From Naegleria gruberi (lineage: Eukaryota), in the NCBI GenBank assembly GCA_000004985.1, contig GG738883.1: a stretch of DNA of 64,000 bases; one strand, written 5' to 3'. A program made the position numbers and the translations under genes. Each line of letters begins with the position of its first letter. Positions within the stretch are counted from its first letter, which is position 1. The notes under the pieces were generated by a model. The model had not been told where the DNA came from, did no database searches, and saw only the letters and a program-made list of their open reading frames with translations. Shown piece after piece: positions 46,445-58,858 of the stretch.

Positions 46445-48614
46445 TCATTCTTTAAGCATGCATGAATTGGTTTTCAAGTGGAAATCCCATTGCTTTTCAG
46501 TTCTGGTAATTGCATTGCCCAAAATTGTTTTAGTTTGAGTTTGAAGTGCTGCAATATACTTGTCCTTAACTTCCTTCTCGGAGGTGTTGGCATTTGCCTT
46601 CTTTGCTGCTTCTGAGCTGATCATTGATTCATCTAAAAAGCCAGCTGTATCAAGGAACTCAGTCATTGCTCCCATTAATTGATCGTACATAATGGATCTT
46701 CTAATCTTGGTTTCAAGTTTGGCAGTTTCTCTTTCAATATATTCAACCTGTTCCTTATCTAAAACTCTCATTAATTCTAACAAGACCACGAGGAGAGTGT
46801 GTCTCTTCTCATCCTCTGTAATTTGTTGCACAAGTGCCCTCAATGAGAAGAGAGAATAATCCCAAACAGTATTCGATTGTTGTAAAATGGTTGCTGCGTT
46901 TGTGTACAAACAATGGAAAGCATGTAGTAAATCTTCAGAAATGGAGAATGTTGTTACTTCATGATACAAGTGCTTGTTTCTTTCCACAAACTTTTCTCTC
47001 AGTAGATCAACCTTTATCTTTCTCATTTCGTCTCTATTGTCTTTTGGTGGGGCTGGTTCAGGTAAGTTATCAATCACTCTTTCTACTATATCATGCATTA
47101 CAATGTAAACTCCATTCTCCTCCTCCTTCTCTACAAAAGGTTCCAAATCCTGTTGTTCCTCTGAAATTACTACTCCTTTCAATTTTACCTCATCACAATC
47201 ACAATAAGCCTTTGGAATAGTTTCCAATTTAAATCCATCAGTAAAAATTCCTTCCATATCAGACTCGAATGAAAAGACAAACTTTTTGGTTTTTTGAGGA
47301 AGCAATATTCCCTTTCCTTCTGTAGAAAGCATAAATTTGGATTCAGCCCTCTTCTTTTGAAGTGATGTAATTGGCTCAACCTTAACCCATTTGTATTGGA
47401 TTGAGCAGCATCCTGTATTTTCAAGAACAACCTCCTTTTGAACCAATTCTCCTGGAATGGCATCAAAAAGAATATCATTTTCCGATAATTGAAAAGCAGG
47501 AGCTTCCATCTCTTCTTTTGCTTCCTCTTCCTTAATTTCGTATGGAAGATGAGAAGCAGAATATGTTTCCTCTTCGTCATATGTATTGTACTTTTCCTCA
47601 ATCTTTTGACCAATAACCTTCAGTTCTTCAATAAGAGAAGAGGGATCATGGGTTAGTTCCTTAGCTAATAGTTTTCCATATTTCTTTCTGAAATAGATTT
47701 AGAAATTTCGATTCAACCAGGGTACTTACTTTACATAGTCTGATTTCATTGACCTAATTCCCAAAGGTGTGTTATCCCTAATTAAACGTTCCAGTACATC
47801 TCAAAAACAATAGACAACTTACTCTGCAATAAATCTATCAGGATTTCTCACAGTAGCTGGCTTTCTAATTTTTTTCTCAATAATAGGACAAAACAAAGGA
47901 TATGGATAATTTCCAATTTTAACATATCTCACTCCATCGTCCTCAGGTACATCTACAATAACTTAAGTAAATGAAAAACATTAATACTAACTTCTAAGAG
48001 ATAATTCCCAACTCCATTCGTTGTGACGTTTTTCTACTGGAATGGAAGCTTCCAAAATATCTATTTCCTCTCTTTTTGCTCTGAATGCATCTTGACTTTC
48101 CATCACCAAAGAAGTTTTTGGCTATTATCCTCAATAAAACATTCAATCCCCAACCTACCTTTCCTGTTTTATTTGCCAACCGTTCTCCAATATCCCCCCA
48201 AGTTTGCAAATATTCTTCATACTTTCTGAGGGCCTTCTCTTGCATAAATTGTCTTCCTACTGCCTTATCGTCATGAATTGTTTTTTCCAACTTTTCCGAA
48301 AATTTTGGTTTTGTATTTCTAGAACTTTCCAAATTTTGCTTCATTCTCTTAAACGATTCATTATTAGCCTCCACATTTGAACACAATGATCCAGAACTCT
48401 GCAGTGTTGATTGAAGTTGTGATCGACTCATTGCAGTCATGTACTGATCCAATGATCCTAAAATTTCAATCTCCGATTTTGGAAGACGAGAAGCATCAAA
48501 TAAATTCGGAACCATACTAGGCTCCATTCCTGGTTCAACATTAGATAAATTCATCTCCATTGGAACCTCAACCCTTGGAGGTAATTGAGGAGCAGACTCT
48601 GGTTGTGGTGTCAT
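46445..48614 (-). CDS. ASH (MSP-like) domain protein, possibly MYCBP-associated protein (MYCBPAP/AMAP-1)-like, about 668 aa; 5 exons (48614..48159, 48121..47992, 47952..47823, 47777..47730, 47687..46445)
   Basis: Track ORFs 47994..48614 and 46445..47509 are linked through three micro-exons by introns of 37-45 nt (donors GTAGGT, GTTAGT, GTAAGT x2). The ASH-type beta-sandwich signature is FQLSENDILFDAIPGELVQKEVVLENTGCCSIQYKWVKVEP. The family call is tentative. Confidence 0.45.
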
Positions 48615-48736: not shown

Positions 48737-49744
48737 TTAGATTGTAATGACAAGTCTTTTACCTGGGTCAATATTTTCTTGCCATGCTGCAGCAACATTT
48801 TCCAAAGGCTCAACATGAGTTTCAATCTTGAGCTTTCCCTCAGCAACCCATTTGAATGTTTGAGGAAGAATTGAAGAGAAGAATTCCTTCATTCCACTTT
48901 CAGAAATACTGCCCAATCCACTTCCAAGTATTTCAATTGCTGTTGAACGTAATAAACTTGAAGGAATTGCAACATTTTCGCCTGCCATTGATCCAACTGT
49001 TACTACCTTAACTGGGTGAGAGAATCCGTGAAGATTTCCTGAACCTTTCAATGATTTGAAAATTAATTCAATTGGATGACCCCACAAGTAATCAATGACA
49101 ATATCAATTGGTGTCTCTTGATGAATTTGAGAGATTTGCTTGGTAATTTCTTCATCTGATTCTCCAAGAGAAATTACTTGATCAACTCCATATTCATTCT
49201 TTAAAATCTTTAAAGACTCTTGATTTCTACCTGTTGCAATTACCTTACTAGCTCCGTATAACTTTGCCAATTGAACTGCAACTCTTCCAGTAACTCCAGT
49301 AGCCCCATTCACCAAAACTACTTGACCACTCTTCAAGTGTGCCCTATCTGTCAATGCCAAACTTGCACCCATCACAGCATTTGGTAAAGCAGCAGCAGAA
49401 ACATCATCAATTTCATCAGGGAGAGGCACAACCTTACTCTTATCAACAATGGCCTTCTCTGCAATCATACCACTGATGCCAAATGCATAGACTCTCTGAT
49501 TAGTTGTCTCCAAATGTCCAACACCATCCACTCCAACAACTGTAGGCAATTCTGAATAATTGGTATAATGTTTGCCAGATGCTCTTATCTTATCTAAATT
49601 CTTAACAGAAGCTGCCTTGACAGAAATCACAACATGTTGATCCACATTCAATAGTTTCGGAAGAGGAAAATCCTTTTCAAATATTGGTACATCGCCGAGT
49701 TTATGTAAAACTGCTGCTCTCATTTTTTTGATTGTTGTTTTCAT
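48737..49744 (-). CDS. Medium-chain dehydrogenase/reductase (quinone oxidoreductase-like, NAD(P)H-dependent), 335 aa
   Basis: Rossmann motif VLVNGATGVTGRVAVQLAKLYGASKVIATGR. An N-terminal GroES-like region is present (AAVLHKLGDVPIFEKDFPLP). Confidence 0.7.
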   Translation of the reverse strand: MKTTIKKMRAAVLHKLGDVPIFEKDFPLPKLLNVDQHVVISVKAASVKNLDKIRASGKHYTNYSELPTVVGVDGVGHLETTNQRVYAFGISGMIAEKAIVDKSKVVPLPDEIDDVSAAALPNAVMGASLALTDRAHLKSGQVVLVNGATGVTGRVAVQLAKLYGASKVIATGRNQESLKILKNEYGVDQVISLGESDEEITKQISQIHQETPIDIVIDYLWGHPIELIFKSLKGSGNLHGFSHPVKVVTVGSMAGENVAIPSSLLRSTAIEILGSGLGSISESGMKEFFSSILPQTFKWVAEGKLKIETHVEPLENVAAAWQENIDPGKRLVITI

Positions 49745-49899: not shown

Positions 49900-52800
49900 T
49901 TATGAATAAACTTTTAGTTTGCCTGTATCAGTAGAAACAAGCAGTAATTTGTGAAGAGGTAAATATTTAACGTCAGTGTAGTTTCCATTATTGGAATCGC
50001 TTGAAATATTGTTAAATGCTTGCCCTTCACAATATAAAACCTCTCTATTGTCTGAATCGATTGGAATTTCTCTCTTCTTTTTAGAAAGCTTTCTTTGTTT
50101 GTTCTTGAAGTCGTTCGAGGATTTAGAGTTCAATCTGTCAATTACATTTCTTGTAGAAACAAAACTGGAAGATTTACAGTAGAGAATTCTATCAGGTTGC
50201 AATGCAAATAATTGATCACATTCTGGTCTACTATAAAAATCGAACGAAATGATTGGAGCATTCGAAACTAAATCTTGATTGGTATTGTTGGAAACCTGGA
50301 ATGCCTTGATACACTTGGATGGTACAGAGTTTCTTGTATCCCAAACACGAATTAAGTCATTCTTATAGTCAGCTGCATCTTCTACTGGTCCTGTAATTGT
50401 GGAGGGGCTATTATCAAATGAAACAGTCTTACGGCAGCATGTGATAAAGTGTCCAGGTTTGGTTCCATCGTATGGCAATATTTTAGTAAGCTCTCCATTT
50501 TCGTGTGAACAGAATGAATCCAAAATCAATCCACTATGTTGTTCCATTAAAAATATCACGCCATTAGATAGTCCAATAGTTAAAAAGTTATCTCTTGGAT
50601 GACACTTGGAAATGCATTTGATGTTATGTTCTCCAATCACAGCAGAAGAGGTTGATGACATCATGTTTGGTACATAATTTGATGATTGGGATGTGAATAA
50701 CTTCCACTCAAAGGCACAAGACTTGGAAGGTTGTCTTAGATCATAAAATTGCACATTAGGAACAGACGAATAACTACTAGCCACAAGAATGTTAGGATTA
50801 TTTGTCAATGTTTCAAAAGTAATGAAATTCATAGTACCATTCAATTCTTGATTAATAGATGGAGATCCTGCACCAACAGTATACAAATATTTAGTTGTCT
50901 CAACATCAAATAAGTGAATATTTCCTCCACTATCCTTACACAGAAACTTGTTATCTGAAATGAACTTTACCTTGTCAACTTGAGATCTAAATAATTGCTT
51001 GTTAGTAGTTCCAGTATTTTGATAGCACAAATAGGTGCTCTCCATAGAAGAAGATTCCAAATTCCACAAACGTACAACAGGATTTGAGTGATGTCGCAAT
51101 AAACCTCCACCAGTTAATATAATTCTCTCATCTGATGGACAAACATCAATACATCTAAGTGATAAGTCATTAAATTTCAAATCTGAAAGCTCATACTCCA
51201 AAATTCCCTTAAATTTAACATCAGAAGTTTCTCTATCAAAACTATTGAATGCAAATGATTTTTCAAATATTTTTCCACTTGATAGTTGGTTATGAATGTA
51301 CCAAGAATTCTTTTCTGAGGTAACCTTTTTTGCTTTGGAGTATTGAATTTTAGGCTCCTTTGACTTGAGCTCATCTGCATCATTCTCTGAAAAATCAACA
51401 GTATCTTTTGTAAGACTGTCTTCGAGCATCTTACTATTCAATACAGCCTCTCTCATTGTAGAATTTCCAAAAACGCAACAGAGCTCTCTATACAAGGTGC
51501 AACCCATCTTGAAATGTCTATTATTTTTGAATCCACAATTTTCATCGTCATTACTCTCCTTGGTAGATTCATCCTCGACGGGACTATCATTGGTCGAAAT
51601 ATCCAAATTCTTATCATCAGATGCTGTAGAATCTCCACGTTTGAATCTCTCAAAGAATGATCGAATACCCTTTTTCTTTGTAACCTCATTATTTGTAGAA
51701 TTAGCTTGAATGGTCTGGGCCTGAATCGCTTCTTCATCAACTAAATCGCTGGCTAATGGTTGGCTATTTACTATAGGATTCTTGGAAAGATTTGCAAAAG
51801 ATGGTGCCACAGCAAGTTGTTGTGAAAAGTATCCATCCAAGTAAACGGCAGAGCACAAGATTTTTCTAAATGTAGATTTAGAGTTTTGGAATATTTGAAT
51901 TCTAACTTTAAGGTCACAAATATGGAAGAGTCTACACAAAAAGTGAGTAATTCTCTCAAAAATGTCCAAAATGTAAACAAATTGATTATTGGAATCATCA
52001 TTTTGAATAGCTAAATTATAGGTTGCCTCCATAATATTATTAATCAAGACTTGATTTGTTTGTAAAATATTATTCACAACAAGAGTTTGATTTGTGGTTC
52101 TTTCGAGAATATTCTCTAACAAGTCAATAATATTAGTTGCATTCCTCTTTAAATTTTCAAGATTTGTTATAGAACTAGAGGTTAGATCGTATGTCTTGAT
52201 TTCTTGTAAAATGATAGAAAAGAATTTAGATGCATAGTAACTAACAATTGTTCCATATCCCAAATTGGAGCTCAAATTATTCAATAGTAAAAAGATACTC
52301 TCATCGAATTGATAATGTCTAATCTTTTTTCTCAGTTTGAATAGTAATGGATCCAAAATGTATTGTATCGAAACAATAATTCCAAAATCGTTACATAATT
52401 TACACAGTGTAGCACATATCTTTTTGGAAATTTCTGGAAACTTGACACAATTAGTGAATAATCCTTCAATAAAGAATGGTAATAATTGTTCTAAGAATAA
52501 ACGCTTTTGATCCTTAGTTGTTGGATTAGTGATACCCTCAGAGTATGTGGTTGATGATGTTTGAGAAGCCTTACTATAAGGTTTGTGTGTAACATCAGAC
52601 AATATTACATTATAAATTAATGAAGAAAATGAATATGAATACAAGTTGAGAGGTAGTAACAACAAGTCTGATCTTTCTGGAATGGTATTGTTTGGTGATG
52701 AAGATTCATTATCTGAGGAAGATGTGCTATTTAAAATGGACTCTACTCTTTCATTTTCCATATACAATTGATAGAGTCTCAATTTAAGTATCTTTTTGGC

Positions 52801-55479
52801 CGAGTCACACTCTTTGAATTTGGAAAGGAATTTCTCTCTCGAATATCTTACCATTCCTCTCAAAATTTCAATACCATAAGTCCATGGTTGGATGTGAACA
52901 AAATGATTTGGTGAATTTTTTTCCATCTTTTTCACAAAGAACATGTGGAGAATGTGAGGAAGAACTAAATCGAGAGCATCAGGTGGAAGAGCCATAATAC
53001 TCTCTTGGAATTCTTGTGAATTATTTGGTGGTTTGATTTGTCTCAATACAAAATTATATCTTTCCAAATGACTCTGAAAGAGGTATAAATTTGAGAGAAC
53101 CCAATGACAATACTTGAAATATTCTGGAAAATATTTTTTGGATTGGTTAATAAAGAGTGCCTTCTTTCCTTTTGAAAGATTGATATCAATTAACTTTTCA
53201 ACAATGGAACGAGCAGGTTGACTGATCTTTTTCAATGCAGGTACTTCTGGTTGATGGTTCAACATTCCAGTCTCCCTAATATACTTTTCAAGAGACCTCG
53301 TATTAAATAATGGCTCAAAAGTATAGAGAGAGGCTAGCAAACATCCAACAGCAAACATGTCATCATTATAAAGCTCGCCTTTGGATTGAACTCGAGAACG
53401 ATTAATCTTTTCAATGAATGGTACAACATGATAGGCAGAGCTGGTAAAGTACTTGCTACTGAATTTGACAGAATTTTCATACAAGTGCATTCTCTCCATA
53501 ATAGAATTTGATGTGGAATATCTAGGGGGGTGTGGTTCGAAGAATAATTGAACAAATCCAAAACGTGAAGGATACAAGTCGTTATTTTCCTTTCTCAACA
53601 TGACATTTTTAGCTTCAATGGCATGGTGTCCACTAAGCTTGTATCCAAAAATCAAATCAATCCAATGATGAATATTCTGACTCACATAGTCACTCTCCAG
53701 GGCAGCTTTATGCTTTTGAATAAATTCTTCAGGTGTAGAAGCCCACGGCGGCAATACTAAATCAGTCATGTCTGTATGAATGGAAGTGAACATGTTCGGA
53801 TCAGTGAAAAATTCTGGAATGCATTCATCTGGAGTCCACTGATAGAGACGAACAATGGAATTTGGATATTCTTTTGGTTCATAGTTTTGTCTGACAAATT
53901 TCCTCAATGCACTAATAGAAACTCTTCTTGCCTTGTAGATAAAGTAGGTAATTTCAGAAAGTGGCTCTGTAACGTGATGAGGATTATCTGGTGATTGATA
54001 GGTAAAATCCAACATTTCATCTCCCTTATTGAGTCTGAATTTAGTTTTGGTTAAATCTCTCCATTCAACACGTGAGTTTGGATCGGTTGGGTCACTCTCA
54101 AAATCAATAATCCATGGCAATACAGGATGATACTGTTGATCACCAAGTCTCCTCCCAGCAAGAGCATTAAGTTTCATCAAGTAGTCAAAATTTGAAATTT
54201 TACCCTCCTGCCATAAGAGAACTAGATCTTTGGTTCTATTCTCGGAAATGTTCTGTGGTGACAATAGGGTACTATTATTTCCAGCTGTACCAGTATTGGA
54301 TGTTTTTGAGGGTGATTTAAATTCTGCCATTGGTGTTTGTAAAACGTGATGATGATGATCAGAGATGTGTTCTGGAGTATAGAGTATATCCTGTCCAATA
54401 ATTGAAATCCACAACATTTCATTGATTAGAATATTATTGGGTATTAATTTTCCATGAGCAATATTATTCTTGTGACAATGTGAAACTGCCTGTAATAATT
54501 GATAGAATAAAAATCTTCTACGAATGTCATCTAAATTAATTGAATAAAAAGTTAATGAAATAATGAAACAATTATTAAAAAAAAACAATATAAAAACAAA
54601 CCTGTTTCAAGAAGAACCTTATTGAATTGAATCAATTCTTCCCAAGTATAATTGTACATTTCCAAAACAATAAACCAAGCATTTTTACTTTCATAAACAT
54701 CGTATAATAATGGTATATTAGCGTGCTATAAATAATAGTATTTCAATAATTATCATTTCCAAATGAATAAATAATTGATAATAAACAAATTTTAATAATG
54801 TTGATAAGTTAAATATTTAAAAATAATTATAACATACCTTTGGAATAAAAGGACCGTCAAATAATATAAAAGTTTCATCCAAATCCCCATGTGAAGGATT
54901 ATAAAAAGTATAATCATCCAAAATTAATTGATTTAAATGATAAATTTGTGATAATGAATGATGTATGGCCTTTCTAATTGAATGATTAGATTTTCCATCT
55001 CCCATTTCAAATTGTTTCGGAATGACTCGTACCACTACATTTACTTCATCGGGTAATAATGAAAGTGGAATACTATTATTTGAAATGATATTATGATGAT
55101 TAGAATTGTTATTATTGTTACTATTATTAACATTGTTATTATCCAAATTATTATTATTCAAATTATTCACATTATTTTCTTCATGTAATTGATCCTGTTG
55201 ATCTTGTTGATTCATTGTTGGAGATATTGATGATGAAATTGATGGTGATGAATTTAATTCATCTTGTTGTGATAAATTTTCATCATCTGTTAACACATGA
55301 TTATCAAAAGTAGGCCTCTTTTTATAAATCTTGGATCGTTTACTATTATACATTTTGCAACAAGCATAGGAACATTTTCTCGTATATTCGGGACTCAACA
55401 TGTACTGATACTCGATGAGAGTCGGCGAGAGATCCTGTTCAATATATTCTCTCACTTGACTCGCATTTAAATTTCCCAT
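49900..55479 (-). CDS. WDR81: WDR81 ortholog (N-terminal pseudokinase-like region, BEACH domain, C-terminal WD40 repeats), about 1798 aa; 3 exons (55479..54838, 54725..54602, 54530..49900)
   Basis: The BEACH domain WQEGKISNFDYLMKLNALAGRRLGDQQYHPVLPWIIDF...FRLNKGDEMLDFTY...ITYFIYKARR...YQWTPDECIPEFFTDPNMFTSIH...HHWIDLIFGYKL aligns closely with human WDR81 ([38 protein letters not shown]...). C-terminal WD40 repeats are present (IRVWDTRNS...). Exon 1 (track ORF 54817..55479) joins through GTATGT and GTTTGT introns of 112 and 71 nt. Confidence 0.8.
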
Positions 55480-56224
55480 TTTTTAATAATATTTATTTTA
55501 ATATTAAGATATTGTTATTATTATTAATATGTTAATCTGTTAGGAAATGCATTCTTTCAATATGAATTAATTGAAGTGTTTACAATTAAACAATTGGTCA
55601 TGACTCTTTACAATTTACAGTTTTTACATTTGTCAATAGTCCCCACCTTCATCTTGCCATTCACCCTCTAAAAATTTAGTTCTAAATTATTCATGTTGTT
55701 ATTCTTATTATTCCTATTAGACCTTCGGTTGTATAAAAACTGTAGTTGGTCAATTAATCGCTTCTCATTCAAATTGAACAATAAAATAAAGGTTCATTTT
55801 CAAAATTGCCTTCAAGTTGGAGGTTCAAATTCAACCGTGACCGCGGTTCGTTTTTGATTTTGAAGTGAATATTTTCAAAAAGCTCTTTTTTGGTACCACC
55901 CAGTATTAGACACTTTTTATCTAGTAAGCCATTCTTGTTCTTTCTAACATTCATCACCTTCTTAACTCCCTTTAATCTATTCAATCACAACAAAGTACAA
56001 GTATGTTCTTTCCACTGATGATTTCCATCAATCACAGTTAAGCCAAGTACAATTCGAAAAAGCTCTTTTTGTGAAGTGTTCAACTTGTTGTTGAGGTTTC
56101 TTCTTCACCGCATCATCGCATATTCTCTTGCTCACCATCAACAAGTGTTGTGAATCTTTCCAGAGAGGGAGAATCGAAAAAACAACGCATTGTAATAATT
56201 TTACACCGTTACAAGCCACTTCGA

Positions 56225-56232
56225 CCAATCAG
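56225..56232 (+). promoter_or_regulatory. CCAAT box (NF-Y-type, gaCCAATCAGcg) about 115 bp upstream of the EF-2 start codon
   Basis: Exact match to the extended NF-Y consensus RRCCAATCAG in the EF-2 / WDR81 divergent promoter. Confidence 0.3.
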
Positions 56233-56344
56233 CGCGGTGCACCTCTTTCATGATTTTTATTGAGCACGAGTAGCATAAATTATTCTCTGCTGTTGAAAAA
56301 AAAAACACCAAACTACCAAACTTCACAATTTTGATAACACGAAA

Positions 56345-58858
56345 ATGGTCAAATTCAGTATTGATGAAATCCGTAATATTATGGACAAGCAACCACAAAT
56401 CCGTAATATGTCTGTCATTGCTCACGTCGATCACGGTAAATCCACCTTGACTGACTCCTTGGTTGCTGCTGCCGGTATTATTGCTCAAGCTAATGCTGGT
56501 CAACAACGTTTCATGGATACCAGAGATGACGAACAAGATAGATGTATCACCATTAAGTCTACTTCTATCTCCCTCTACTATAAGAAGCCAGCTGAAGATG
56601 GTACTGAAACTGAATATTTGATTAACTTGATCGATTGTCCAGGTCACGTTGACTTTTCATCTGAAGTTACTGCTGCTTTGAGAGTTACTGACGGTGCTTT
56701 GGTCGTCGTTGATGCCGTTTCTGGTGTCTGTGTCCAAACTGAAACTGTCTTGAGACAAGCTTTGCAAGAAAGAATTAGACCTGTCCTCATGATGAACAAG
56801 TTGGACAGAGCTTTCCTCGAACTCCAATTGCAACCTGAAGATGCTTATACCAACTTTAACAAGGCTATTGAATCTGTTAACGTTGTCATTTCCACTTATG
56901 ATGATGGTGGTTTCGGTGATCCACAAGTTTACCCAGAAAAGGGTACCGTTGCTTTCGGTTCTGGTCTCCATTGTTGGGGTTTCACTTTGAAGAGATTCGC
57001 CAAGATGTACGCCAAGAAATTCGGTGTTGCTGAAGAAAAGTTGATGAAGAAATTCTGGGGTGATAACTTCTTTGATGCTGCTAACAAGAAATGGGTTAAG
57101 GACTCTCAAGGTGGTAAATTGGTCAGAGGTTTCTGTCAATTCGTCTTGGATCCTATTTACAAGGTTTTCCACTCTTGTATCAATGATGATAAGCCTCTCC
57201 TCGAAAAGGTCTTGCCAGTTTTGGGTATTACATTGTCTGCTGATGAAAAACAACAAAAGGATAAGAAGTTGATGAAGTGTGTTATGGCTAAATGGTTGCC
57301 AGCTGCTGAAGCTCTCTTGGAAATGATTGTCACTCACTTGCCTTCACCAAAGGTTGCTCAAGGTTACAGATATGAACATTTGTACAACGGTCCACTCGAT
57401 GATAAGTATTGTCAAGCTGTTAAGAATTGTGATCCTAATGGTCCATTGATGATGTACGTCTCTAAGATGGTTCCTACTAACGATAAGGGTAGATTCTATG
57501 CTTTCGGTAGAGTTTTCGCTGGTAAGGTTAGAACTGGTCAAAAGGCTAGACTTATGGGTCCTAACTTTGAACATGGTAAGAATACTGACTTGTTCGATGA
57601 TAAGACTATCCAAAGAACTGTCGTTATGATGGGTCGTTATACTGAATCTGTTGATGATATTCCTTGTGGTAACGTTGCTGGTTTGGTCGGTGTTGATCAA
57701 TTCTTGATCAAGACTGGTACTATCACTGATTCTGATTGTAAGGATGCTTGTCCATTCAGAGATATGAAGTACTCTGTTTCCCCTGTCGTCAGAGTTGCCG
57801 TCGAACCAAAGAATCAAGCTGATTTGCCAAAGGTTATTGAAGGTATGAAGAGATTGGCTAAGTCTGATCCTTTGGTCGTCTGTACTATCAATGAAGAATC
57901 TGGTGAAAAGATTATTGCTGGTGCCGGTGAATTGCACTTGGAAATTTGTTTGAAGGATTTGAGAGACGATTTCTGTGGTGGTATTGAATTGAAGATTTCC
58001 GACCCAGTCGTTGCTTTCAGAGAAACTGTTTCTGAAGCTTCCCCATGTGATACTTTGACTAAGTCTCCAAACAAGCACAACAGATTGTACATGAATGCTG
58101 AACCACTCCCAGAAGAAATGCAAGATGATATTGAACAAGGTAAAATTACTGCTAACGATGAAGCCAAGAAGAGAGCTAAGTACTTGCAAGACCAATACGG
58201 TTGGGATCAAGACCAAGCCAGAAAGATTTGGTCATTCGGTCCAGACCAAACTGGTCCAAACTTGATGGTTGACGTTACCAAGGCTGTCCAATATTTGAAC
58301 GAAATTAAGGACTCTGTCAACTCTGGTTTCCAAATTGCTGCTAAGGAAGGTCCACTCTGTAATGAAACATGTCGTGGTGTTAGATACAACTTGACTGATG
58401 TTACTTTGCACACTGATGCTATCCACAGAGGTGCTGGTCAAATCTTGCACACTGCCAGAAGAGGTTGTCAAGCTGCTCACTGTAACTCTGCTCCAAGAAT
58501 TTTGGAACCAATCTTTTTGGTTGAAATCCAATGTCCTGACTCTGTTTTGGGTTCAGTCTACTCTGTCATGAACAGAAGAAGAGGTACAATTGATCAAGCT
58601 ATCCAAAGACCAGGTACTCCAATGTTCAACGTTAAGGCTTACCTCCCTGTCTTGGAATCATTCAACTTCTCCACCTTCTTGAGATCTGAAACTGGTGGTG
58701 AAGCTTTCCCACAATGCGTTTTCCACCATTGGCAAATTGTTGGTGGTGATCCTTGGGATAAGACTTCAAAGATCAGAGAATTGGTTGTTGATACTCGTAA
58801 GCGTAAGGGTTTGAAGGAAGAAATTCCAACCGTCGAAGAACTCTCCGACAAGTTGTAA
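56345..58858 (+). CDS. EFT2: Translation elongation factor 2 (eEF2), single exon, 837 aa
   Basis: G-domain motifs [17 protein letters not shown] and NKLD. The diphthamide-region is [18 protein letters not shown]. Codon usage is highly biased (GGT, GCT, AAG, TTC, TTG). Confidence 0.95.

What the first reader, a model, noticed from the sequence alone, without database searches (positions are those of the whole stretch)
49900..55479. WDR81 ortholog with N-terminal pseudokinase-like exons and a poly-Asn tract
The BEACH domain aligns residue by residue with human WDR81 and is followed by about 1100 residues and C-terminal WD40 repeats. Two short upstream exons supply a kinase-like region (AWFIVLEMYNY...IAHGKLIPNNILI). 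The N-terminal exon also encodes an Asn-rich tract (NNVNNLNNNNLDNNNVNNSNNNNNSN). WDR81 is best known from vertebrates, where it regulates endolysosomal trafficking and aggrephagy. A full-length protist ortholog helps date the family, and it shows that the kinase-like N-terminus is ancestral.
Basis: partly seen in the sequence, partly recalled or inferred. Interest (0 to 1): 0.5.

Follow-up and report, generated by a model that had tools for sequence, protein, structure and literature searches.

The report
Naegleria WDR81/GFS12-family gene, already catalogued

Summary
On the minus strand, three exons (55479-54838, 54725-54602, 54530-49900) joined by two GT-AG introns give a 1798-aa protein. It is 100% identical over its full length to the deposited Naegleria gruberi protein NAEGRDRAFT_80587.

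Its BEACH domain is of the WDR81/GFS12 type. It scores 243-442 bits against 119 family members, versus 106-110 bits against LRBA and NBEA. It is 54% identical to a vertebrate WDR81 and 58% identical to a plant GFS12.

The kinase-like part is not confined to the upstream exons. It is one degenerate kinase fold spanning all three exons, and the BEACH domain is inserted in its activation segment. The C-lobe follows the BEACH domain. The β3 lysine, HRD aspartate and DFG aspartate are all lost. The C-terminus models as a seven-bladed WD40 propeller.

The poly-Asn tract is real, but it is a non-conserved, disordered insert.

This VPS15-like pseudokinase with a BEACH insertion was already described for human WDR81 (PMC11554844). 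Orthologues with a detectable kinase domain are already catalogued in plants, fungi and amoebozoans. The gene therefore adds one Discoba data point. Its function in endolysosomal PI3P and trafficking control is inferred by homology only.

The parts
54838..55479 (-). Exon 1 (aa 1-214). Contains the start codon, the N-terminal MGNLNAS motif, kinase N-lobe strands and the low-complexity insert.
   Evidence: The N-terminus is conserved in Naegleria and Willaertia.
55459..55479 (-). MGNLNAS, a candidate N-myristoylation motif (MG-x-x-x-[STAGCN]).
   Evidence: Pattern match; 17 of the 120 sequences (this protein included) share it. Myristoylation itself was not tested.
55099..55176 (-). Asn-rich tract, aa 102-127 (19 N of 26; 16 AAT and 3 AAC codons). 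It lies inside a disordered insert (aa 68-133) between N-lobe strands.
   Evidence: pLDDT is below 50 over aa 68-133. It is not conserved in N. lovaniensis or N. fowleri and is absent in Willaertia.
54726..54837 (-). Intron 1, 112 nt, GTATGT...ATAG, phase 0.
   Evidence: Same position in N. lovaniensis.
54602..54725 (-). Exon 2, 124 nt (aa 215-255 plus 1 nt). Encodes kinase β4-β5/αD (HANIPLLYDVYESKNAWFIVLEMYNY...).
54531..54601 (-). Intron 2, 71 nt, GTTTGT...TTAG, phase 1.
   Evidence: Same position and phase in N. lovaniensis.
49900..54530 (-). Exon 3 (aa 256-1798 plus the TAA stop).
54379..55071 (-). Pre-BEACH part of the pseudokinase (aa 137-306; the interval includes both introns). β3 is VVVRV, the HRD equivalent is HGK, and the DFG equivalent is IGQ.
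53521..54231 (-). BEACH domain (aa 356-592), preceded by a disordered linker (aa 308-355, including an HHHH run).
53107..53508 (-). Post-BEACH kinase C-lobe (aa 597-730), including the αF motif DDMFAVGCLLASLYTFEPLF.
51202..53106 (-). Middle region (aa 731-1365). It aligns with the family's central region and is presumed to be an α-solenoid. No transmembrane-like segment was found.
   Evidence: Family alignment consensus. Helices begin at aa 726-754 in the model. Maximum 19-residue hydropathy is 1.35. The fold itself was not modelled.
49903..51201 (-). C-terminal β-propeller (aa 1366-1798). It has 28 predicted strands, consistent with 7 WD40-type blades with long loops.
   Evidence: AF2 pLDDT 75.5 and pTM 0.78. 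Foldseek hits are all WD40 propellers, E ~5e-15. Pfam WD40 matches are weak only.

Best explanation
The interval is the complete three-exon gene of Naegleria gruberi for its single-copy member of the WDR81 (animals, fungi) / GFS12 (plants) family of atypical BEACH proteins.

Architecture. The protein has a probably N-myristoylated, catalytically dead protein-kinase fold. A BEACH domain is inserted in the activation segment of that fold. A long central region follows, then a seven-bladed WD40 propeller. This is a VPS15-like layout plus a BEACH domain.

Function, inferred by homology and not shown here. It probably works as a non-enzymatic scaffold on endosomal or phagosomal membranes. There it would control PI3-kinase (Vps34/Beclin) output and the early-to-late endosome or vacuolar sorting step, as WDR81-WDR91 does in animals and GFS12 does in plants.

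The poly-Asn tract is a lineage-specific disordered insert in an N-lobe loop. No function is indicated for it.
For: Gene model
- The in-frame GT-AG three-exon join gives 1798 aa.
- The product is identical to deposited NAEGRDRAFT_80587.
- Intron positions and phases are conserved in N. lovaniensis, as is the divergent EF2 neighbour.
- The N-terminus (MGN...) and C-terminus (LP..LLL....G.L) both match the family consensus.

Family
- Outside Heterolobosea, the best hits that carry a family name are GFS12 or WDR81 (one is mislabelled Neurobeachin), E 1e-85 to 1e-100.
- The BEACH domain alone scores 243-442 bits against the family and 106-110 bits against LRBA/NBEA.
- BEACH identity is 54% to lizard WDR81 and 58% to Nelumbo GFS12.

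Split kinase
- Pkinase matches before the BEACH domain (profile 56-133) and after it (profile 170-249).
- Excising aa 307-596 in silico gives one continuous Pkinase match, profile 56-249, 68 bits.
- The AF2 model has pLDDT 80 and pTM 0.81.

Pseudokinase
- β3 Lys is replaced by Arg, HRD by HGK, and DFG by IGQ. The DFG Asp is absent across the family.

Propeller
-.

VPS15 likeness
- The top Foldseek hit of the propeller is the 1191-residue chain of PI3KC3-C1.

Literature
- The same architecture is described for human WDR81 (PMC11554844).
- WDR81-WDR91 binds Beclin1 and restrains PI3P (PMC4738380, abstract).
- WDR81 acts in aggrephagy (PMC5412561).
Against: - There is no transcript evidence. Splicing rests on comparative and fold arguments.
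- Pfam WD40 models do not reach their cut-offs on this protein.
- The central region was not modelled.
- The function is entirely by homology. No WDR91, Beclin1 or Vps34 partner was examined in Naegleria.
- Only LRBA and NBEA stood in for canonical BEACH proteins. LYST, WDFY3 and NSMAF were not compared directly.
- At sequence level, Vps15 is not distinctly the closest kinase. It ranks 12th at 44.5 bits, against 52 bits for a CDK.
Confidence: 0.9

Rival explanations
1. The upstream exons are a separate small gene, or a mis-joined ORF. On this view the BEACH protein starts inside the long ORF, for example at an internal Met.
For: The long ORF 49900-54588 and the ORF 54817-55479 are listed separately by a mechanical ORF scan. 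No transcript data are available.
Against: - Without exons 1-2 the kinase fold would lack its N-lobe. The AF2 model builds one kinase domain from all the pieces.
- Both introns are conserved in position and phase in N. lovaniensis.
- The alignment is ungapped across both junctions in four heterolobosean species.
- The N-terminal MG motif and the following block are conserved from Naegleria to dictyostelids and fungi.
Confidence: 0.02
2. It is a canonical BEACH protein of the LYST, NBEA/LRBA or WDFY type that happens to lie next to a kinase-like sequence.
For: The only solved BEACH structures it matches are NBEA and LRBA. One homologue (P0107, a cricket protein) is labelled 'Neurobeachin' in its source record.
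Against: - BEACH-only scores are 106-110 bits to LRBA/NBEA but at least 243 bits to all 119 WDR81/GFS12 homologues.
- There is no PH domain before the BEACH domain. aa 308-355 are disordered, and only about 262-287 of the 414 PH-BEACH residues align.
- At 1798 aa with a split kinase, the protein has the atypical architecture and not the PH-BEACH-WD40 architecture (PMC11554844).
Confidence: 0.02
3. The kinase domain is catalytically active, so the protein is a BEACH-containing protein kinase and not a scaffold.
For: Pfam Pkinase passes its gathering score (59.9 against 31.7 bits). Some homologues are named 'serine/threonine protein kinase' by JGI. The catalytic-loop Asn is retained (HGKLIPNN).
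Against: - In N. gruberi the β3 Lys is Arg, the HRD Asp is Lys, and the DFG Asp is Gly.
- No family member in the alignment keeps a DFG Asp, and the β3 position is not conserved.
- A roughly 290-residue insertion replaces the activation loop.
- Human WDR81 is described as a pseudokinase.
Confidence: 0.05

Closest known systems
WDR81 (animals; C. elegans SORF-2) and fungal proteins labelled WDR81
   Same: - The order of parts is the same: degenerate kinase piece, BEACH, kinase C-lobe, long central region, WD40 propeller.
- The BEACH domain is 50-55% identical.
- The αE/catalytic-loop block F.YQLL.A...H..G and the post-BEACH DM..GC..AE block are conserved.
- The C-terminal LP..LLL motif is conserved.
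   Different: - The Naegleria kinase piece is less degenerate. Pfam Pkinase detects it, whereas animal entries lack a PF00069 hit. Animals have CG.LSL where Naegleria has HGKLIPNN.
- Naegleria has an N-terminal MGxxxS-type motif that animal sequences lack.
- Naegleria has a poly-Asn insert.
- WDR91 and Beclin1 binding is unknown in Naegleria.
GFS12 (plant BEACH-kinase-WD40 protein, Arabidopsis At5g18525; the functional description is from my own knowledge of Teh et al. 2015 and was not retrieved here)
   Same: - Best-scoring named family; for example Nelumbo GFS12 at E 6e-97 with a 58% identical BEACH domain.
- A Pfam-detectable kinase domain flanks the BEACH domain.
- It also has a C-terminal WD40 region.
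   Different: - Plants mostly keep HGD/HGN in the catalytic loop, whereas Naegleria has HGK.
- Flowering-plant N-termini do not fit the myristoylation pattern.
VPS15 / PIK3R4 (regulatory subunit of class III PI3-kinase)
   Same: - Shared layout: N-terminal MG-start, degenerate kinase, helical region, C-terminal WD40 propeller.
- The top Foldseek hit of the propeller is the long chain of PI3KC3-C1.
- The resemblance was already noted for human WDR81.
   Different: - VPS15 has no BEACH domain.
- At sequence-profile level Vps15 is not the single closest kinase; it ranks 12th.
- The Naegleria protein is therefore VPS15-like in plan but is not a VPS15.
Canonical BEACH proteins (LRBA, NBEA, LYST, WDFY3/4, NBEAL1/2, NSMAF)
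   Different: - No PH domain precedes the BEACH domain.
- No ConA-like domain was detected by Pfam.
- The BEACH domain is embedded in a kinase fold.
- BEACH scores are 2.3-4 times lower than to WDR81/GFS12.

Membership tests
WDR81/GFS12 (atypical BEACH proteins) | BEACH domain of the WDR81/GFS12 subtype, closer to family members than to other BEACH classes. | tested here: met
   - Pfam Beach E 8.6e-45.
- BEACH-only phmmer gives 243-442 bits to 119 family members and 106-110 bits to LRBA/NBEA.
- 54-58% identity to vertebrate, plant, fungal and dictyostelid members.
- Caveat: LYST, WDFY and NSMAF were not compared directly.
WDR81/GFS12 (atypical BEACH proteins) | Kinase-like fold interrupted by the BEACH domain in the activation segment (PMC11554844). 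| tested here: met
   - Pkinase profile 56-133 lies before the BEACH domain and 170-249 after it.
- There is one continuous match (profile 56-249, 68 bits) after in-silico excision of aa 307-596.
WDR81/GFS12 (atypical BEACH proteins) | Loss of catalytic residues (pseudokinase). | tested here: met
   β3 is VVVRV, HRD is HGK, and DFG is IGQ. The DFG Asp is absent in all 24 aligned members. This is sequence inference only, with no biochemistry.
WDR81/GFS12 (atypical BEACH proteins) | No PH domain immediately upstream of the BEACH domain. | tested here: met
   aa 308-355 upstream of the BEACH domain are disordered. Matches to PH-BEACH crystal structures cover only the BEACH part, 262-287 of 414 residues. 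There is no PH hit in Pfam.
WDR81/GFS12 (atypical BEACH proteins) | Central α-solenoid between the kinase C-lobe and the propeller. | not tested
   aa 731-1365 align with the family's central region, and helices start at aa 726-754.
WDR81/GFS12 (atypical BEACH proteins) | C-terminal WD40 β-propeller. | tested here: met
   - AF2 model of aa 1328-1798: 28 strands, pTM 0.78.
- At least 1828 WD40-type Foldseek hits with E up to 0.001.
- Pfam WD40-type models are only sub-threshold on the full protein (ANAPC4_WD40 E 1e-3). On the C-terminal fragment alone, ANAPC4_WD40 reaches 26.3 bits against a cut-off of 22.9.
WDR81/GFS12 (atypical BEACH proteins) | Complex with WDR91 and binding to Beclin1/PI3KC3 (animals). 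| not testable with these tools
   Known for C. elegans and mammals (PMC4738380). No Naegleria partner was examined.
VPS15/PIK3R4 | Contiguous N-terminal (pseudo)kinase, then HEAT, then WD40, with no BEACH domain. | tested here: not met
   The overall plan is similar and structural ranks are high. However, a BEACH domain interrupts the kinase, and the best sequence homologues are WDR81/GFS12, not VPS15.
Canonical BDCPs (LYST/NBEA/LRBA/WDFY) | PH-BEACH-WD40 module with a ConA-like domain and a large N-terminal solenoid. | tested here: not met
   No PH or ConA-like domain was found. BEACH scores to LRBA/NBEA are low.

The most novel reading that the evidence does not exclude
The WDR81/GFS12 family may be an ancient (pre-LECA) paralogue of VPS15 that acquired a BEACH domain in its activation loop. 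On this reading the Naegleria, dictyostelid and some fungal and green-algal members still carry the ancestral VPS15-like N-myristoylation signal, which animals lost. WDR81-type proteins could then restrain class III PI3-kinase by acting as membrane-anchored VPS15 mimics that engage Beclin/Vps34.

My data are compatible with this reading:
- the MGxxx[ST] start is present in 17 of the 120 sequences (this protein included);
- PIK3R4 is the third-best structural match of the kinase part and has the highest identity among the kinase matches;
- the top propeller match is the long chain of PI3KC3-C1, taken to be VPS15 from its length.

The data do not demonstrate common descent, and they do not demonstrate the mimicry mechanism. 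The architectural resemblance itself is already published.
Probability: 0.25. Interest if true: 0.45.

Novelty: already known. Interest (0 to 1): 0.12.

Why it matters
It matters little beyond bookkeeping. The exact protein and gene model are already deposited as NAEGRDRAFT_80587, named 'hypothetical protein' by NCBI and 'BEACH domain-containing protein' by UniRef. The family is already visible in plants, fungi, amoebozoans and animals. The pseudokinase with a BEACH insertion is already published for human WDR81.

The useful residue has three parts.
- The Naegleria entry could be renamed as a WDR81/GFS12 orthologue.
- Its presence in Discoba, together with Amoebozoa, Archaeplastida and Opisthokonta, supports an origin by the last eukaryotic common ancestor.
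- The heterolobosean and amoebozoan members keep a better-preserved kinase piece and a VPS15-like MG start. That may help anyone reconstructing how this family relates to VPS15.

Tried and rejected
- A family profile of the pre-BEACH kinase piece was searched against PDB sequences to see whether Vps15 is the closest kinase. It ranks 12th of 1134 (44.5 against 52.3 bits), so there is no specific sequence signal.
- Three literature searches gave nothing useful. 'GFS12' returned only noise. 'BEACH domain' with Naegleria returned 0 papers. WDR81 with 'last eukaryotic common ancestor' returned 0 papers.
- The look-up of encoding contigs for the exact N. gruberi protein found no record. No scaffold coordinates or transcript contigs could therefore be retrieved, and provenance rests on the 100% identity.
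- The early-literature idea of a membrane-spanning or MFS-like region in WDR81 was checked with a hydropathy scan. The maximum 19-residue mean is 1.35, so there is no transmembrane-like segment.
- The Pfam 'Musclin' and 'KNTC1_N' hits are sub-threshold and were dismissed as spurious.
- The large search of protein representatives and the remaining homology searches were not used. They would not change the verdict.


Full report
**What is there**

A mechanical ORF scan shows a 1562-codon ORF (49900-54588) and a 220-codon ORF starting at the ATG at 55479.

Reading the minus strand shows two short AT-rich introns with canonical ends:
- ...CCA AAG|GTATGT...TTTATAG|CAC GCT... (intron 1, 54837-54726, 112 nt, phase 0);
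- ...GAA ACA G|GTTTGT...AATTTAG|AT GAC ATT... (intron 2, 54601-54531, 71 nt, phase 1).

Joining 55479-54838, 54725-54602 and 54530-49900 gives 5397 nt and a 1798-aa product with a single terminal stop. GC content falls to about 0.20 over the intron region, against 0.31-0.38 in the exons. Read-through of intron 1 meets a stop after seven codons.

**Provenance and the gene model**

The spliced product is 100% identical over 100% of its length to 'hypothetical protein NAEGRDRAFT_80587 [Naegleria gruberi]', which UniRef names 'BEACH domain-containing protein'.

No transcript data could be reached; one search found no record. Three independent lines support both joins.

- In the N. lovaniensis orthologue (locus L001) the two introns lie at the same codons and phases, with GT-AG ends. 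The divergently transcribed EF2 gene is also the upstream neighbour there.
- The alignment with N. lovaniensis, N. fowleri and Willaertia magna runs through ...GPFIPK|HANIPLLYDVYE... and ...LLET|DDIRRRF... without gaps.
- The pieces encoded by the three exons assemble into a single kinase fold, as described below.

The N-terminus (MGN..., then a conserved block) and the C-terminus (LP..LLL....G.L) both match the family consensus. The model is therefore full-length.

**Family**

Pfam finds Beach (aa 362-567, E 8.6e-45) and Pkinase (E 3e-16, two stretches).

In the 5.8-billion-protein search, heteroloboseans came first: Naegleria, Willaertia and Percolomonas. The best hits after them are:
- dictyostelid proteins;
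- plant 'protein GFS12';
- 'WD repeat-containing protein 81' of Mucoromycota fungi;
- animal WDR81.

These score E 1e-85 to 1e-108.

With the BEACH domain alone (aa 344-566), all 119 homologues score 243-442 bits. The solved BEACH domains of LRBA and NBEA score 110 and 106 bits. The BEACH domain is 54% identical to a lizard WDR81 and 58% identical to Nelumbo GFS12. The caveat is that only LRBA and NBEA represented the canonical classes.

**Anatomy: the kinase fold is split by the BEACH domain**

In fact exon 1 is 642 nt. AWFIVLEMYNY (aa 230) is in exon 2, and IAHGKLIPNNILI (aa 279) is in exon 3. The kinase fold also continues after the BEACH domain. The evidence is as follows.

- phmmer against PDB sequences aligns aa 214-293 to kinase residues about 77-154. 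A second stretch, aa 642-665 (DDMFAVGCLLASLYTFEPLF), aligns to the αF region.
- The post-BEACH piece alone matches Pkinase profile positions 170-249.
- When aa 307-596 are removed in silico, one continuous match covers profile positions 56-249 of 263 (68 bits, E 1e-18).
- An AlphaFold2 model of aa 1-761, built with 57 family sequences, has pLDDT 80 and pTM 0.81. Only the low-complexity insert (aa 68-133) and the linker before the BEACH domain (aa 308-355) are disordered.

The BEACH domain therefore sits in the activation segment.

**Catalytic residues**

In N. gruberi the catalytic residues are gone. β3 is VVVRV, whereas Willaertia keeps VVVKV. HRD is HGK, and DFG is IGQ. No aligned family member retains a DFG aspartate. 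The fold is a pseudokinase by sequence criteria. This was not tested biochemically.

**The rest of the protein**

aa 731-1365 align with the family's central region. I did not model this region. It contains no transmembrane-like segment.

Pfam WD40-type models are only sub-threshold on the full protein. On the C-terminal fragment scanned alone, ANAPC4_WD40 reaches 26.3 bits against a cut-off of 22.9. An AF2 model of aa 1328-1798 (pLDDT 75.5, pTM 0.78) has 28 β-strands from aa 1366 to 1797, consistent with seven four-stranded blades. Foldseek returns only WD40 propellers, at E about 5e-15.

The BEACH-to-propeller distance is about 770 residues, not 1100.

**The Asn tract**

The tract is real: aa 102-127, window 55099-55176, 19 N in 26 residues, mostly AAT codons. 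It is the only such tract in the window's long ORFs.

It lies in a disordered insert between N-lobe strands. It is not conserved. N. lovaniensis and N. fowleri have different low-complexity sequence at that position, and Willaertia has none. I see no reason to give it a function.

**Comparison with what is known**

Pankiv et al. 2024 (PMC11554844) describe human WDR81 as the atypical BEACH protein. [quoted passage not shown] That is exactly what I find in the Naegleria protein.

The VPS15 likeness also shows here.
- The best Foldseek match of the propeller is the 1191-residue chain of PI3KC3-C1. By its length I take this chain to be VPS15.
- The protein starts MGNLNAS, which fits the N-myristoylation pattern. 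So do 17 of the 120 sequences (this protein included), from heteroloboseans, dictyostelids, a prasinophyte and some Mucoromycota. VPS15 is N-myristoylated; that statement is from my own knowledge.

At sequence-profile level, however, Vps15 ranks only 12th among kinases. Specific common descent is therefore not shown.

**How it most likely works**

This section is inferred, not shown. In C. elegans and mammals, WDR81 (SORF-2) with WDR91 binds Beclin1 and limits PtdIns3P during early-to-late endosome conversion (PMC4738380). WDR81 also links p62 and LC3C in aggrephagy (PMC5412561). From my own knowledge, plant GFS12 acts in vacuolar protein sorting.

The Naegleria protein has every recognisable module of the family. 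It most likely acts as a non-catalytic, possibly lipid-anchored scaffold in endosome or phagosome maturation. No partner or phenotype was examined.

**Verdict**

- the kinase topology and the exon assignment of the quoted motifs;
- the spacing between the BEACH domain and the propeller;
- the weakness of the Pfam WD40 signal.

The finding is not new. The sequence and model are deposited. The family's pan-eukaryotic spread, and the detectable kinase domain in non-animal members, are visible in databases. The architecture is published. The claim that this gene 'shows the kinase-like N-terminus is ancestral' is correct in direction, but plant, fungal and amoebozoan orthologues had already established it. 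Interest is low.

Noticed in passing
window 56345-58858 (+): An intronless 837-aa elongation factor 2 gene (GTP_EFTU, EFG_III, EFG_IV, EFG_C) is transcribed divergently from the WDR81-like gene, with an 865-bp shared upstream region (55480-56344). The same head-to-head EF2 arrangement exists in N. lovaniensis (L001 1-2339).
   Followed up: partly
window 48737-49744 (-): A 335-aa zinc-type alcohol dehydrogenase / quinone oxidoreductase-like ORF (ADH_zinc_N, ADH_N) starts only 155 bp downstream of the WDR81-like stop codon. In N. lovaniensis the downstream neighbour is instead a 720-aa protein kinase, so synteny breaks on this side.
   Followed up: partly
window 47994-48614 (-): A 206-aa ORF with no Pfam match at E up to 0.001. 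I did not determine whether it is a real gene or an exon of one.
   Followed up: no
window 55459-55479 (-), aa 1-7: The protein starts MGNLNAS, which fits the N-myristoylation consensus. The same MG[NQ]xx[ST] start occurs in 17 of the 120 sequences (this protein included): heteroloboseans, dictyostelids, Prasinococcus and some Mucoromycota. It is absent from animals and flowering plants. This parallels VPS15.
   Followed up: partly
window ~54345-54356 (-), aa 314-317: A His run (HHHH) lies in the disordered linker between the kinase catalytic core and the BEACH domain. It is not present in N. lovaniensis or N. fowleri.
   Followed up: no
window 56657-57337 (-) and 57344-58216 (-): Long antisense ORFs (226 and 290 aa) lie entirely inside the EF2 coding region. 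They are almost certainly by-products of EF2 codon composition and not genes.
   Followed up: no
homologue P0107: A cricket (Gryllus bimaculatus) protein labelled 'Neurobeachin' has the length and BEACH score of a WDR81 (270.6 bits to the Naegleria BEACH domain). It looks like a mislabelled database entry.
   Followed up: partly
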